From a virus (lineage: Duplodnaviria > Heunggongvirae > Uroviricota > Caudoviricetes), in IMG/VR virus record IMGVR_UViG_2609459833_000015, positions 1-17,614 of that record: 17,614 nt of DNA; one strand, given 5' to 3'. The notes beneath the pieces were generated by a model. The model searched no databases. It saw only the letters and a list, made by a program, of their open reading frames with translations, and had not been told where the DNA came from. Below, piece by piece: positions 10,862 through 14,611 of this stretch (position 1 is its first letter; every line of letters starts with the position of its first letter). Position numbers and translations under genes: made by a program.

Positions 10862-11398
10862 ATGTCATTTATTAAAACTTTTTCCGGGAAGCATTTTTAT
10901 TATGACAAGATAAATAAAGATGACATCGTTATTAACGATATCGCGGTTTCCCTTTCAAATATCTGTCGCTTTGCCGGTCATCTTTCTCACTTCTACAGCG
11001 TCGCCCAACATGCGGTGCTTTGCAGCCAGCTGGTGCCGCAGGAATTTGCTTTTGAAGCGTTAATGCATGATGCAACAGAAGCGTATTGCCAGGACATCCC
11101 AGCTCCACTGAAACGCCTTCTTCCTGACTATAAACGGATGGAAGAAAAAATAGACGCCGTAATCCGTGAGAAATACGGGTTACCTCCTGTTATGAGCACG
11201 CCAGTGAAATATGCCGATCTCATTATGCTGGCAACCGAACGTCGCGATCTCGGGCTTGATGATGGCTCTTTCTGGCCTGTACTGGAAGGTATCCCGGCGA
11301 CAGAGATGTTCAAAGTTATTCCACTGTCACCAGGCCATGCCTACGGGATGTTTATGGAACGTTTTAACGAGTTATCGGAGTTACGCAAATGCGCATGA
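10862..11398 (+). CDS. HD-domain phosphohydrolase (YfdR-like 5'-deoxynucleotidase)
   Basis: HD signature (VAQHAV ... LMHDATE); 178 aa from ATG 10862 with SD GGAG; the track ORF begins at an upstream GTG (10835). Confidence 0.7.
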   Translation: MSFIKTFSGKHFYYDKINKDDIVINDIAVSLSNICRFAGHLSHFYSVAQHAVLCSQLVPQEFAFEALMHDATEAYCQDIPAPLKRLLPDYKRMEEKIDAVIREKYGLPPVMSTPVKYADLIMLATERRDLGLDDGSFWPVLEGIPATEMFKVIPLSPGHAYGMFMERFNELSELRKCA

Positions 11399-11751
11399 AT
11401 GTTTTCGAAATGGAAGGGTTTCTTCGCGGGAAATGTGTACCACGAGATCTGAAAGTGAATGAAACAAATGCTGAGTACCTGGTACGTAAATTCGATGCGC
11501 TTGAAGCTAAATGTGCGGCACTGGAAAACAAAATAATACCAGTGTCAGCTGAACTGCCGCCAGCAAATGAAAGTGTTCTGTTATTTGATGCTAATGGAGA
11601 AGGCTGGCTAATTGGCTGGCGTTCTCTCTGGTACACCTGGGGACAAAAAGAAACCGGAGAATGGCTGTGGACATTTCAGGTCGGGGACCTTGAAAACGTC
11701 AATATCACTCACTGGGCAGTAATGCCGAAAGCACCGAAGAATAAAAAATGA
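11389..11751 (+). CDS. DUF551-like protein (YfdS-like)
   Basis: 120 aa; C-terminal GWLIGWRSLWYTW...THWAVMP resembles the DUF551 domain; SD GGAG eight nt before ATG 11389; overlaps the YfdR-like stop. Confidence 0.55.
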   Translation: MRMNVFEMEGFLRGKCVPRDLKVNETNAEYLVRKFDALEAKCAALENKIIPVSAELPPANESVLLFDANGEGWLIGWRSLWYTWGQKETGEWLWTFQVGDLENVNITHWAVMPKAPKNKK

Positions 11752-11951
11752 GCGTGATAAAAACTCATACAGGAATTGTTATCACCCGAGACGGTCCGCA
11801 GGTAAAAAAACTGCACCAGACAAAGCGGATGTGGGTCGTCGGAAAAAACGAGTTTTACCACAAAGAAACCGGACGCCGCCACTTTGCAGAAAATACTCGC
11901 CGCCGACTGCTGATCGATACCATCAAGCCTATCGAGGTGAAGCATGTTTAA
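11748..11951 (+). CDS. Hypothetical small protein (67 aa)
   Basis: ATGA overlap with the upstream stop; basic small protein; no family recognised. Confidence 0.4.
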   Translation: MSVIKTHTGIVITRDGPQVKKLHQTKRMWVVGKNEFYHKETGRRHFAENTRRRLLIDTIKPIEVKHV

Positions 11952-12183
11952 ACAGAACGAAAAATCTATCGCTCAAATTGCTGAGTATATCCCGCGTGCG
12001 TGCCGGGATATGCAGTTGCAGGAAGCCAAAGCACGCCTGGAGAAAAAAATTGCGCTCTATATCGATGACGGCTGTGATGCCGCCGTTCTTAACGCGGCGT
12101 TCGCGCCAGCTCTTAACAGTCATACGCGAAAGTCTTTTTTTTCGTGCATCACAGCGCAGATCCGTAAAGGAGGCAACCAGTGA
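11944..12183 (+). CDS. Hypothetical small protein (79 aa)
   Basis: SD GAGGTG (11934-11939) before ATG 11944; stop overlaps the next gene's GTG start. Confidence 0.45.
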   Translation: MFKQNEKSIAQIAEYIPRACRDMQLQEAKARLEKKIALYIDDGCDAAVLNAAFAPALNSHTRKSFFSCITAQIRKGGNQ

Positions 12184-12995
12184 GCAACATTAACTATCAG
12201 GTACTGCGTGAAAAGGCAGAGAAAGCAACTAAAGGAAGCTACATCGTAGGGCATACATCTGTTAACCAACACGGCAATTTAACAGGAGTTTTTGTTTGTC
12301 AAAAATGGAAAGGAGAACCCGGTGGCGTAATTGCAGAATGTCACGTTAACTGCCTGGTTGAAACAGATGCTCAGGCTTATGCAAACGCTGAATTCATAGC
12401 AGAGGCTAACCCGGCTACCGTGCTGGCACTGCTGGATGAACGGGAAAGAAACCTGCAATACATCAAAAGCCGCGATCAGGAGAACGAGGATATTGCGCTA
12501 ACGGTAGGGAAGCTGAGAGTTGAGCTTGAGGAAGTAAAACAACACGCTGAAGAATTATCCGAAACCAAGGCTGTTCGTAACCAATGGCGGCCAGATATTT
12601 GCCCAATAACCGGACGTGCATTTTTCATGTGGATTGAGCATCCAACATTGGGAAATGTGCCGACATATGGTGGCCCATTAGATAGTTACACCATTCCAAC
12701 AAAGGACGGTGACGGTGAGTTTTCATGTGAGCGTTACGATCATGATTTTGGCGGTTGGGTAGAAAGCGAATGTCTTGGGTTATATCTGATTGATGATAGA
12801 GAACAATGCAGGGTCTACGAACTGGAGGAACGCGTTAAGGAACTGGATGCTCGGGAAATATCGCTCCCGGAACGTAGCAGCATGCTTCATCGAACAGATT
12901 TTCACGATGATTACCAAACGGTAATGGCATACAAAGTTTCTGAAGTCATCGCTGCAATCCGCGCCGCAGGCATTCGCATCAAAGGAGGTGAGTAA
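12180..12995 (+). CDS. Ead/Ea22-like protein
   Basis: GTG start with strong SD AGGAGG; central coiled-coil-like region and Trp/Cys-rich C-terminal half typical of Ea22-like prophage proteins as recalled. Confidence 0.55.
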   Translation: MSNINYQVLREKAEKATKGSYIVGHTSVNQHGNLTGVFVCQKWKGEPGGVIAECHVNCLVETDAQAYANAEFIAEANPATVLALLDERERNLQYIKSRDQENEDIALTVGKLRVELEEVKQHAEELSETKAVRNQWRPDICPITGRAFFMWIEHPTLGNVPTYGGPLDSYTIPTKDGDGEFSCERYDHDFGGWVESECLGLYLIDDREQCRVYELEERVKELDAREISLPERSSMLHRTDFHDDYQTVMAYKVSEVIAAIRAAGIRIKGGE

Positions 12996-13171
12996 TGCGT
13001 GTGGCATGTATCGGCTTGTTACCGTACCCGACTCGTTTTTGGGCTTCTGCGCTAATTGCAAAGCCACATGTCCTGATGGCTGACAACATCATCCCGGCAC
13101 CAAAGCGCCGCCATACCGGTATTGCAGCGGCACGACGAGCAGCAAAGAAACGCAGGAGAACAAAACGATGA
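12995..13171 (+). CDS. Small basic protein (58 aa; not in the ORF track because below its apparent 60-aa cutoff)
   Basis: ATG 12995 overlaps the Ea22-like stop (TAATG) with SD AGGAGGTG; stop overlaps the next ATG (ATGA); C-terminus AAARRAAKKRRRTKR. Confidence 0.4.
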   Translation: MRVACIGLLPYPTRFWASALIAKPHVLMADNIIPAPKRRHTGIAAARRAAKKRRRTKR

Positions 13172-13350
13172 AAAACCGTAAGGCAAAAATTCTGTTAGCT
13201 CGCAGAAACGGTGTTGGGGTCTGGCGATGGTTGAGGATTAGTAACAGACGAGTGAGGTTGACGGGGTGTTGCGGGGTGATGGGGCACAGTTGTTGCAAAA
13301 AGCCTAGCGCGTCACAGAACAGGCGGAAGAAAGGGTACGCAGTAAGATGA
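13168..13350 (+). CDS. Small Arg/Trp-rich protein, paralogue A (60 aa)
   Basis: Shares MKNRKAK, WLR(I/V)SNRRV(R/V)L and SA(S/A)QNR blocks with the next ORF; conserved residues use different synonymous codons (aga vs cgc, cga vs cgt). Confidence 0.5.
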   Translation: MKNRKAKILLARRNGVGVWRWLRISNRRVRLTGCCGVMGHSCCKKPSASQNRRKKGYAVR

Positions 13351-13538
13351 AAAACCGTAAAGCAAAGATGCTTATCTCCCGTGTATACAGACGTTGCTAT
13401 CCCAGCCAGTGGTTGAGAGTTAGCAATCGCCGTGTGGTGTTGTACTTATATTCTGGAATTGCCAGAGAGGGAATCAAAGATAAGCGCAGCGCGGCGCAAA
13501 ACCGCTGGAAAAACCACTTACGCACTAAAGGAGCCTGA
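13347..13538 (+). CDS. Small Arg/Trp-rich protein, paralogue B (63 aa)
   Basis: Tandem paralogue of 13168..13350 with an in-frame 3-nt indel; ATGA overlap with the upstream stop. Confidence 0.5.
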   Translation: MKNRKAKMLISRVYRRCYPSQWLRVSNRRVVLYLYSGIAREGIKDKRSAAQNRWKNHLRTKGA

Positions 13539-13539
13539 T

Positions 13540-13749
13540 ATGGCTATTTCCGCAAGTTACACCATGCATCTCTACTGTGATTGTTGCCAGTGTACAAATG
13601 GTAAATATCAAACGCCAGACTTCGGTGAGTATATCGGTACGTCATGGGCTGGCTGTGCAAAAGAGGCGCGCAAGGATGGCTGGCGAATAAGCAAAGACAA
13701 AACACGTGCTTTTGCGCCCGGGCATAAAGTTTTGAGGATTAATAAATGA
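13540..13749 (+). CDS. Small Cys-rich protein (69 aa; possible metal-binding CxCCxC)
   Basis: ATG 13540 with SD AGGAG; HLYCDCCQC motif; the track ORF 13432..13749 has an N-terminal extension overlapping the previous gene. Confidence 0.45.
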   Translation: MAISASYTMHLYCDCCQCTNGKYQTPDFGEYIGTSWAGCAKEARKDGWRISKDKTRAFAPGHKVLRINK

Positions 13750-14195
13750 CCACTATTACCAGAGAAAACGCGGAAATTAAATCATTCATCACTGGTTTCC
13801 TGAGCGACCCGGCGCACGATAACCAATCTTCAAGCAGCCTGCTTGCCAATGTGTTTCGTATCGCACTGGCATCGTTGGAAGCAGAGCCAGTCGCGTGGCG
13901 ATATCGCTACGTGAAAAAAGGTGTTACGGACTCTCAGGGGGATTCGTGGGTTGGTGACTGGAAATATGTACCGACAAAAGAGGATTGCAACGACAGACCG
14001 AACTATGAAATTCAGGCGTTATTCACTGCCCCGCCTGTGCCACTGACATCAGAAGGATTGATTAAAGCAGTGCGTTTCTATGAACAGGTTAAGCGTGAAA
14101 ATCCGCCAGTCGAAACCGGAGCATGGAAAGACGCTGTTGACTGGGTACTCAAAGAGGCTTGCCAGGCTGTAAACATTGGCATCAAAGGAGAGTGA
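13746..14195 (+). CDS. Hypothetical protein (149 aa)
   Basis: ATGA overlap with the upstream stop; SD GAGGA; shares an N-terminal module (RIALASLEAEPV) with the 14612..15556 gene. Confidence 0.5.
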   Translation: MTTITRENAEIKSFITGFLSDPAHDNQSSSSLLANVFRIALASLEAEPVAWRYRYVKKGVTDSQGDSWVGDWKYVPTKEDCNDRPNYEIQALFTAPPVPLTSEGLIKAVRFYEQVKRENPPVETGAWKDAVDWVLKEACQAVNIGIKGE

Positions 14196-14196
14196 T

Positions 14197-14418
14197 ATGG
14201 CTAACTCATTACTTGAAACCTGCAACAACTAGCAGATTCAGAGGGCGGAGATTTTATCTCGCAATCCAGATATGGCAATGACAATTGATAACCTGGATAC
14301 GCTAATTGAACGGACCGTGCGTTCTGCAATTGATATAGCACATCGAGTAGATTGGGATTTCAGAGAAGCGGAGCGACTCGCTAAAGAGCAGGCGAAAGCA
14401 GCGGGTAAAGGAGAGTGA
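14197..14418 (+). pseudogene. Small gene interrupted by an in-frame amber codon (TAG 14230-14232)
   Basis: ATG 14197 sits behind the same AAAGGAGAGTGATATG cassette used by the neighbouring gene; the frame runs 11 codons, TAG, then 61 more codons ending GKGE-stop at 14416-14418 directly coupled to the next gene. Confidence 0.35.
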
Positions 14419-14419
14419 T

Positions 14420-14608
14420 ATGTCACTGACGGTGAGGCAATTAATCAGCAAGCTCAGAAAAATGCCTCCTGAGGCTGTCGTGGTCTGGCAGGGCTATGAA
14501 CAATCAGAGTGTGAGTATAACGACTTTGTAGGTCATGTTGCTGATATTACAGATGAAAATTCATCATCCTTTGACCCAGAAGTGCGCGTTGTGGCGCTAA
14601 GAGGATAA
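14420..14608 (+). CDS. Hypothetical small protein (62 aa)
   Basis: SD AAAGGAGAG before ATG 14420. Confidence 0.45.
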   Translation: MSLTVRQLISKLRKMPPEAVVVWQGYEQSECEYNDFVGHVADITDENSSSFDPEVRVVALRG

Positions 14609-14611
14609 CCC

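What the first reader, a model, noticed from the sequence alone, without database searches (positions are those of the whole stretch)
12995..13538. Chain of three tiny, highly basic ORFs including a tandem paralogue pair under protein-level selection
Three consecutive start/stop-overlapping ORFs of 58, 60 and 63 aa follow the Ea22-like gene. The second and third are paralogues whose conserved residues are encoded by different synonymous codons and which differ by an in-frame 3-nt indel, which argues for selection on the peptides rather than a non-coding DNA repeat. They are Arg/Lys/Trp-rich, suggesting nucleic-acid binding. I do not recognise the family; small duplicated basic proteins in this accessory region are candidates for host-takeover or anti-defence factors.
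Basis: seen in the sequence. Interest (0 to 1): 0.5.

Follow-up and report, generated by a model that had tools for sequence, protein, structure and literature searches.

The report
Three small basic prophage early genes
The three tiny overlapping reading frames are real, conserved protein-coding genes of temperate coliphages; two of them belong to one small, very basic protein family that databases already list but whose function nobody has studied.

Summary
ORF1 (12995-13171), ORF2 (13168-13350) and ORF3 (13347-13538) follow an Ead/Ea22-like gene with overlapping stop and start codons. ORF2 and ORF3 are paralogues (BLASTP E 2e-11). Of their 26 identical residues, 13 use different codons, and there is one 3-nt indel.

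Comparison with about 165 related phage loci shows selection on the peptides. All 211 family copies are intact. pN/pS is 0.19-0.45 in frame, against 0.6-1.7 in the two control frames. Conserved residues use up to five synonymous codons. ORF1 is also constrained (0.27, against 1.4 and 1.0), but about 5% of contigs carry frameshift alleles.

ORF2 and ORF3 match phrog_1380 and ORF1 matches phrog_13831, both of unknown function. The family is restricted to enterobacterial temperate phages and P1-like phage-plasmids. It has no Pfam, NCBIfam, PADLOC, PDB or Rfam match and no literature.

AlphaFold (pLDDT 75) predicts a helix, three strands and a helix, with no significant structural neighbour. Arrays hold one to three diverged subtypes, always in the same order.

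Binding of nucleic acid or another polyanion is the most plausible activity, but it is only inferred. The anti-defence and host-takeover ideas are untested. These are ordinary uncharacterised phage genes of modest interest.

The parts
12180..12995 (+). Ead/Ea22-like gene (271 aa). This is context. Its stop codon overlaps the ORF1 start.
   Evidence: Pfam PF13935 at E 1.3e-32. PGAP annotates the identical E. coli EC2 sequence as an ead/Ea22-like family protein.
12982..12991 (+). Shine-Dalgarno-like AAGGAGGTGA, 3 nt upstream of the ORF1 ATG.
   Evidence: Read from the sequence.
12995..13171 (+). ORF1, 58 aa, pI 12.0, phrog_13831. It has a moderately hydrophobic N-terminal half and a nearly invariant basic tail, PKRR(H)TGIAAARRAAKKRRRxKR. 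Its last codons carry the AGGAG ribosome-binding site of ORF2 (13154-13158).
   Evidence: phrog_13831 at E 1.3e-41 over its full length. The 23 distinct homologous sequences in the fetched loci are all open. pN/pS is 0.27 in frame against 1.38 and 0.98 in control frames. Variable sites by codon position are 15/19/34. Indels of 21 and 3 nt are in frame. The search found 96 protein clusters; all that carry an organism name are Escherichia or Salmonella, and many are unnamed metagenome sequences. Frameshift alleles exist.
13168..13350 (+). ORF2, 60 aa, pI 11.9, phrog_1380 subtype B. It is the upstream copy of the array and carries the junction-type C-terminus ...SQNRRKKGYAVR*.
   Evidence: phrog_1380 at E 6e-29. 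The identical protein is phiV10p50, AAZ95948.1. Upstream copies show pN/pS of 0.39-0.42, like terminal copies. PGAP does not call it in strain EC2.
13347..13538 (+). ORF3, 63 aa, pI 11.6, phrog_1380 subtype A. It is the terminal copy with the canonical C-terminus ...SAAQNRWKNHLRTKGA*. Its last codons carry the AAGGAG site (13528-13533) of the next gene.
   Evidence: phrog_1380 at E 9.7e-33. PGAP annotates it as WP_032348680.1. AlphaFold model at pLDDT 74.7: helix 4-16, strands 20-26, 29-34 and 39-44, helix 49-62.
13540..13749 (+). Next gene in the coupled chain (context). It encodes a 69-aa Cys-rich protein, phrog_926, and is the commonest downstream neighbour of the family.
   Evidence: phrog_926 at E 3.3e-36. 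Neighbour survey.

Best explanation
The three ORFs are genuine small protein genes. They are translated as part of a chain of genes with overlapping stop and start codons in the early-left accessory region, between the Ea22-like gene and xis/int. The prophage is lambdoid and CPS-53-like, and lies next to mlrA in E. coli EC2.

ORF2 and ORF3 are two old subtypes of one orphan family (phrog_1380). Its consensus is MKNRKAK-LL...(W)L(R)xSNRR...G...KxSAAQNRWKNH. ORF1 (phrog_13831) is an optional third small basic protein that always sits directly in front of the first family copy.

The family protein is predicted to fold as helix, three-stranded sheet, helix. Three patches are under strong purifying selection: N3-R4-K5-A6-K7, S26-N27-R28-R29 and K46...S48-A-A-Q-N-R-W-K-N-H57. 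Each patch contains an Asn-Arg pair. The segments between the patches vary freely.

My inference is that these patches form a binding surface for a polyanion, most likely DNA or RNA and less likely an acidic host protein. I also infer that the variable segments and the heterotypic arrays (order D, B, A) give different specificities or partners early after infection or induction.

Shown: coding status, paralogy, purifying selection, the array architecture, and the distribution among phages.
Inferred: translation by coupling, the fold, polyanion binding, and any role in the phage life cycle.
For: **Coding.**
- All 113 copies in the first 85 sources (84 fetched loci plus the window), and all 211 hits in about 165 loci, are full length with no partial or frameshifted hit.
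- In-frame pN/pS is 0.45, 0.40, 0.19 and 0.38 for subtypes A to D, against 0.64-1.58 in control frames. Subtype C has variable sites by codon position of 21/18/50.
- Conserved residues use 2-5 synonymous codons.
- Patch-wise pN/pS is 0.07-0.17 while pS is uniform at 0.26-0.33.
- ORF1 has pN/pS of 0.27 against 1.38 and 0.98, with in-frame indels.

**Operon structure.**
- There are ATGA/TAATG overlaps, Shine-Dalgarno motifs, no terminator-like sites, and no more promoter-like sites than shuffled sequence gives (2 found against a mean of 2.9, none in or just before the three ORFs), and no Rfam hit.

**Family.**
- The phrog matches are strong.
- Only 44 clusters appear among 1.84 billion representative proteins, nearly all about 55-80 aa; the longer ones checked are fusions or read-throughs.
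- Every family hit that carries an organism name is enterobacterial.

**Arrays.**
- There are 104 non-redundant arrays: 84 single, 1 with two copies 612 nt apart, and 19 tandem. All 19 tandem arrays have ATGA junctions and the order D, B, A.

**Fold.**
- AlphaFold with 33 sequences gives pLDDT 74.7 and the helix, three strands, helix topology.

**Charge.**
- pI is 11.6-12.0, with 15-18 K+R residues in about 60.
Against: - There is no expression, ribosome-profiling or proteomic evidence, and no literature on these proteins.
- Some of the basic residues at ORF ends are forced by purine-rich ribosome-binding sites of the next gene: the ...RRRxKR* tail of ORF1 and the ...TKGE* tail of the family. 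The tail at residues 58-63 is barely constrained.
- Upstream copies such as ORF2 lack the conserved W-K-N-H. PGAP skips ORF2.
- ORF1 carries several independent frameshift alleles. One of them is seen on 95 contigs.
Confidence: 0.5

Rival explanations
1. The proteins are real, but they act on a host or phage protein rather than on nucleic acid. An example would be a small inhibitor or adaptor that binds an acidic target, which would make them host-takeover or anti-defence factors.
For: - They lie in the early-left accessory region, where small modulators of host physiology are found (PMC8614690).
- Variable segments flanked by conserved patches, together with heterotypic arrays, fit diversification against variable targets.
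- The module is mobile among lambdoid, epsilon15-like and P1-like phages.
Against: - No family member matches any characterised inhibitor.
- pN/pS in the variable segments stays below 1 (0.31-0.44 within subtypes), so there is no sign of positive selection.
- Nothing here tests any defence system.
Confidence: 0.25
2. ORF3 is the functional gene. ORF2, and possibly ORF1, are decaying or dispensable remnants kept open only because translation through them delivers ribosomes to the next gene.
For: - PGAP omits ORF2.
- Upstream copies have lost the conserved W-K-N-H end.
- 84 of 104 arrays hold a single copy, and ORF1 is absent from many loci.
- ORF1 has frameshift alleles.
Against: - Upstream copies have pN/pS of 0.39-0.42, the same as terminal copies, and none is broken.
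- The upstream junction end ...QNRRKKGYAVR* is itself conserved across subtypes.
- ORF1 is under purifying selection along its whole length: 0.29 in the first half and 0.23 in the second.
Confidence: 0.15
3. The region is a non-coding tandem DNA repeat or an RNA element, and the ORFs are accidental.
For: ORFs of this size are abundant by chance. The two units share short stretches of direct nucleotide repeat.
Against: - Nucleotide identity between the units is only 53%, and 35% at third codon positions.
- The frame-specific excess of synonymous change is seen in all subtypes.
- Conserved residues use up to five codons.
- There is no Rfam match at E of 1 or below, and no terminator-like site or excess of promoter-like sites.
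- All indels are in frame.
Confidence: 0.03

Closest known systems
PHROG families phrog_1380 (ORF2, ORF3) and phrog_13831 (ORF1)
   Same: Full-length, highly significant matches. The homologues are phage proteins of the same size in the same genomic slot.
   Different: Nothing differs. These are the same families, catalogued with unknown function and without any published study.
Small exo-xis / ea-region proteins of lambda and Stx phages (Orf60a, Orf61, Orf63, Orf73, Ea8.5, Orf55)
   Same: Same kind of locus: small genes in the early-left operon between the recombination genes and xis, next to ea22. They vary between phages and are thought to modulate the host or the lysis-lysogeny decision (PMC8614690).
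   Different: No sequence relationship. The hhalign probability against lambda Orf55 is 0.8%, and Pfam families of the other proteins gave no hit. The characterised examples are not pI-12 proteins occurring in tandem heterotypic arrays.
Double-stranded-RNA-binding domain (dsRBD)
   Same: The predicted order of elements (helix, three strands, helix) and the size are the same. The three conserved patches fall in helix 1, the strand 1-2 turn and the start of helix 2. From my own knowledge of dsRBDs, these are the three RNA-contacting regions of that domain.
Three-stranded-sheet DNA-binding modules (AP2 domain, NUMOD4 of phage HNH endonucleases)
   Same: The motif W-L-R-V-S-N-R-R-V-V-L resembles, from memory, the Y-x-V-S-N-x-G-x-V hairpin of NUMOD4. 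It also resembles the ...TRNRWVVKV... strand of the AP2-type domain in the HNH endonuclease that precedes the family gene in locus L046.

Membership tests
phrog_1380 | Significant full-length match to the family profile (62 positions). | tested here: met
   ORF2 matches at E 6e-29 over residues 1-60. ORF3 matches at E 9.7e-33 over residues 1-62.
phrog_13831 | Significant full-length match to the family profile (58 positions). | tested here: met
   ORF1 matches at E 1.3e-41, residues 1-58 of 58.
Protein-coding gene under purifying selection | Frame kept open in homologues, and an excess of synonymous change in that frame only. | tested here: met
   All 211 family copies are full length. In-frame pN/pS is 0.19-0.45, against 0.6-1.7 in control frames. 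ORF1 gives 0.27, against 1.38 and 0.98, but about 5% of contigs carry frameshift alleles.
Protein-coding gene under purifying selection | Direct evidence of translation (ribosome profiling or peptides). | not testable with these tools
   No such data are available. The literature searches found nothing.
dsRBD | Structural superposition on solved dsRBDs, or a Pfam dsrm match. | tested here: not met
AP2 / NUMOD4 DNA-binding modules | Profile match or significant structural match. | tested here: not met
Known anti-phage defence systems (PADLOC) | Match to a model of a defence-system protein. | tested here: not met
   No hit at E up to 1. Libraries of anti-defence proteins were not available.
Lambda exo-xis protein Orf55 | Profile similarity. 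| tested here: not met
   hhalign probability is 0.8%.
Structured RNA (Rfam) | Covariance-model match. | tested here: not met
   No match at E of 1 or below in 11500-15000 on either strand.

The most novel reading that the evidence does not exclude
phrog_1380 is a new class of very small nucleic-acid-binding proteins with a fold not yet seen in solved structures. Temperate enterobacterial phages would deploy it in ordered heterotypic arrays whose variable segments set different targets. It would act early after infection or induction on host or competitor nucleic acids, either as a regulator or as an anti-defence factor.
Probability: 0.15. Interest if true: 0.6.

Novelty: new member of a known kind. 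Interest (0 to 1): 0.3.

Why it matters
The variable genes between ea22 and xis of lambdoid and Shiga-toxin phages are early-expressed and largely unexplained. This analysis gives one recurrent module a firm gene model.

The model corrects public annotation. ORF2 is missing from a RefSeq genome. ORF3 is often given a false 27-residue extension. The 933W record misses both genes.

The analysis also defines which residues are constrained and shows an ordered array of subtypes. That makes the family a tractable target for deletion, binding and structure work.

In itself the finding is not surprising. Small conserved hypothetical genes are the norm in this region.

Tried and rejected
- **Sequence libraries.** Pfam, NCBIfam and PADLOC scans gave no meaningful hit. 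A profile search of PDB sequences gave none at E up to 10.
- **Representative search.** The exhaustive profile search of 1.84 billion representatives found only the family itself. The larger apparent fusions are frameshift or read-through artefacts, not domain fusions: P0099, the 933W 167-aa ORF, and the models behind phrog_12350 and phrog_9263.
- **Specific fold and protein ideas.** The dsRBD and AP2/NUMOD4 ideas were considered and not supported. Lambda Orf55 is unrelated.
- **RNA and DNA elements.** Rfam, promoter, terminator and repeat scans gave no support for an RNA or DNA element. The 10-bp palindrome ATACCGGTAT inside ORF1 is what chance would give in 17.6 kb.
- **Species-representative genomes.** The scan found no relative.
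- **Metal site.** A site in ORF2's CCGVMGHSCC segment was rejected because the cysteines are not conserved in the family.
- **Covariation.** No covariation is visible between family subtype and the variant of the neighbouring Ea22-like gene.
- **Cluster artefact.** The 193-aa members of ORF2's 90% cluster are unrelated Ea22-type proteins and reflect a clustering artefact.

Full report
**1. The observation**

The window carries three + strand ORFs exactly as described: 12995-13171 (58 aa), 13168-13350 (60 aa) and 13347-13538 (63 aa). They follow a 271-aa gene that matches Pfam Ead_Ea22 at E 1.3e-32.

The junctions are TAATG, ATGA and ATGA. ORF3's stop is one base from the next ATG at 13540, and that gene again overlaps its successor as ATGA. 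Shine-Dalgarno-like motifs precede ORF1 (AAGGAGGTGA), ORF2 (AGGAG) and the gene after ORF3 (AAGGAG). ORF3 has only a weak AAAGGG 11 nt upstream of its ATG.

There is no terminator-like site in 12000-14500, and promoter-like sites are no more frequent than in shuffled sequence (2 found against a mean of 2.9, neither in nor just before the three ORFs). There is no Rfam match at E of 1 or below in 11500-15000.

ORF2 and ORF3 align with BLASTP E 2e-11. Of their 26 identical residues, 13 use different codons. Nucleotide identity is 53%, split 0.53/0.70/0.35 by codon position, and there is one 3-nt indel. The three proteins have pI 11.6-12.0.

**2. Are they coding?**

An ORF of about 60 aa proves nothing by itself, since 51 ORFs of at least 30 aa overlap 3.5 kb here. 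I therefore collected relatives.

- The sequence is identical to part of a prophage in E. coli EC2 that ends with xis and int next to mlrA. It is 97% identical to phage phiV10, where all three ORFs are annotated.
- A profile of the ORF2/ORF3 family retrieved 80 phage loci from IMG/VR, and a second scan with ORF2 retrieved 80 more.
- A six-frame HMM search found 113 copies in the first 85 sources (84 fetched loci plus the window) and 211 hits overall. Every hit is full length, and none is split between frames.
- Nei-Gojobori counts within the four subtypes give pN/pS of 0.45, 0.40, 0.19 and 0.38 in frame. The two shifted frames of the same alignments give 0.64-1.58.
- The most diverse subtype has variable sites by codon position of 21/18/50.
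- Invariant residues are encoded by two to five synonymous codons.
- Split by region, residues 1-9, 22-32 and 46-57 have pN/pS of 0.07, 0.15 and 0.17. Synonymous divergence is the same in all regions (0.26-0.33). The conserved ends are therefore conserved as protein, not as recombination-homogenised DNA.
- The last six residues encode the ribosome-binding site of the next gene and are barely constrained (0.52).

ORF1 was tested the same way.

- Its 23 distinct sequences in the fetched loci are all open. The start codon is ATG or GTG.
- Indels of 21, 3 and 3 nt are in frame.
- pN/pS is 0.27, against 1.38 and 0.98 in the control frames.

The protein database shows that ORF1 is less secure than the other two.

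- Several independent frameshift alleles lie in the PAPKRRHTG segment. One of them is seen on 95 contigs.
- A few alleles are fused to the next gene.
- By contig counts, disrupted alleles make up roughly 5% of ORF1 occurrences.

**3. What the family is**

ORF2 and ORF3 both match phrog_1380 (E 6e-29 and 1e-32), and ORF1 matches phrog_13831 (E 1e-41). Both families have unknown function.

Nothing turned up in Pfam, NCBIfam, PADLOC or PDB sequences. An exhaustive profile search of 1.84 billion representative proteins found only 44 clusters. Nearly all are about 55-80 aa, and the longer ones I checked are fusions or read-throughs. Every hit that carries an organism name is from Escherichia, Salmonella, Citrobacter or Phytobacter, and most hits are unnamed metagenome or read-archive sequences.

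The module occurs in several kinds of phage:

- lambdoid and Stx phages;
- the epsilon15-like phiV10;
- Salmonella phages Sasha and Sergei, a Yersinia phage, and P1-type records;
- 370 plasmid records, mostly non-mobilizable replicons; the sampled ones of about 90-105 kb are presumably P1-like phage-plasmids such as RCS47.

Part of 12995-13538 is present in 680 of 5,426 complete E. coli genomes, but the whole trio is present in only 8. The exact proteins are already in NCBI as hypothetical proteins. No paper mentions them by accession or by sequence motif. Reviews of the exo-xis region describe the genes downstream of ea22 only as a variable, uncharacterised set (PMC8614690).

**4. Anatomy**

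The family consensus is MKNRKAK-LL ... (W)L(R)xSNRR ... G ... KxSAAQNRWKNH(LRTKGE). Each of the three constrained patches contains an Asn-Arg pair. The segments at 10-21 and 33-45 differ almost completely between subtypes.

Among 104 non-redundant arrays, 84 hold one copy, one holds two copies 612 nt apart, and 19 are tandem: DA 7, bA 4 (the window's type), DB 3, BA 2, Db 2 and DBA 1. Every tandem junction is ATGA, and the order is always D, then B, then A.

Upstream copies always end ...QNRRKKGYAVR*, whatever their subtype. Terminal copies end ...QNRWKNH.... ORF2's subtype also occurs as a single copy with the canonical end (P0121; 24 arrays).

Synonymous sites between ORF2 and ORF3 are saturated (pS 0.745). 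So the pair is two old subtypes placed side by side, not a recent duplication. Upstream copies are as constrained as terminal ones: pN/pS 0.42 and 0.39, against 0.38-0.45.

ORF1, when present, always lies directly in front of the first copy. Its last codons are retained as a short remnant even where the rest is missing, because they carry the ribosome-binding site.

The family gene usually follows or precedes an Ead/Ea22-type gene, in at least 50 of the 85 sources by a simple search. Downstream neighbours vary.

**5. Structure**

AlphaFold with 16 sequences gave pLDDT 61.5. With 33 sequences it gave 74.7, with helix 4-16, strands 20-26, 29-34 and 39-44, and helix 49-62.

The order of elements and the placement of the conserved patches recall a dsRBD. 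The SNRR hairpin recalls NUMOD4 and AP2 modules. Neither resemblance passed a test. Lambda Orf55 is also a three-strand-plus-helix protein near xis, but it is unrelated.

**6. Mechanism**

What is shown is that three small, very basic proteins are maintained by selection. They lie in an early operon, arranged for coupled translation.

What I infer, at roughly one chance in three, is that the family binds nucleic acid through the three Asn-Arg patches. In that reading the variable segments and the heterotypic arrays provide different specificities.

Nothing here tests that.

A reading in which ORF2 and ORF1 are dispensable remnants is weakened by their constraint but not excluded. A non-coding repeat or RNA element is effectively excluded.

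**7. Verdict**

Its functional suggestions remain open.

The genes are catalogued hypothetical phage proteins of a narrow orphan family. The new points here are:

- corrected gene models;
- the map of constrained residues;
- the conserved inter-copy junction;
- the fixed subtype order.

This is an ordinary piece of phage dark matter, of modest interest.

Noticed in passing
window 13168-13350; L004 9269-9451: PGAP does not annotate ORF2 in the identical RefSeq genome (E. coli EC2), although it annotates ORF1 and ORF3. Many database entries give ORF3 a false 27-residue N-terminal extension (90 aa, for example P0006 and phiV10p51) that overlaps ORF2 in another frame.
   Followed up: yes
L002 (phage 933W) 2036-2593: The original 933W record annotates neither ORF1 (2036-2191) nor the family gene (2188-2376). 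Its L0068 (95 aa, GTG start at 2306) is an over-extended version of the 71-aa phrog_926 gene, which starts at ATG 2378.
   Followed up: yes
window 13090-13130 (ORF1 codons for IIPAPKRRHTG); proteins P0206, P0209, P0215, P0217: At least four different frameshift alleles of ORF1 all switch into the same alternative frame. This replaces the basic tail with an acidic one (...AIPVLQRHDEQQRNAGEQNDEKP*). One allele is on 95 contigs, including complete genomes. I did not determine whether this is a mutational hot spot, decay in cryptic prophages, or something selected.
   Followed up: partly
L017 1194-1734 and 19 tandem arrays in L001-L165: The subtype order in arrays is always D, then B, then A, and one locus carries all three. 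The inter-copy junction (...QNRRKKGYAVR* overlapping ATG) is the same whichever subtypes it joins.
   Followed up: partly
L046 upstream of 3001; L045-L068: Otherwise unrelated upstream genes all end with the same ...RKGVQS* overlapping the family ATG. These are varied Ea22-type proteins and, in L046, an HNH endonuclease with an AP2-like domain. Some family members end ...KGAQS*. This looks like a shared junction or ribosome-binding module at mosaic boundaries.
   Followed up: partly
window 13540-13749: The gene after ORF3 encodes a 69-aa Cys-rich protein (HLYCDCCQCTNGKY..., phrog_926) of unknown function. It is the commonest downstream partner of the family.
   Followed up: partly
window 13746-14195 and 14612-15556: Both encoded proteins contain the motif (R)IALASLEA(E/D)PV. 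PGAP starts the second gene 165 nt later (window 14777) than the longest ORF, leaving 14609-14776 unannotated.
   Followed up: no
window 11389-12183 and 14272-14608: Further small ORFs with overlapping stop and start codons flank the region (120, 67 and 79 aa upstream of the Ea22-like gene; 48 and 62 aa downstream). The coupled chain therefore extends well beyond the three ORFs.
   Followed up: no
whole window; L004: The window is the early region and left arm of a prophage with CPS-53-like genes (yfdP, yfdQ, yfdR), a LexA-family repressor, Cro/CI, Rha and PerC-family genes. The xis/int end (integrase at 16328-17614) lies next to mlrA in E. coli EC2.
   Followed up: partly
Genome-contig scan: In one genome per species for 185,579 species, 59 stretches matched the family's peptide patterns but none was confirmed as a relative. 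The family seems absent from species-representative genomes, although it is present in about one in eight complete E. coli genomes.
   Followed up: no
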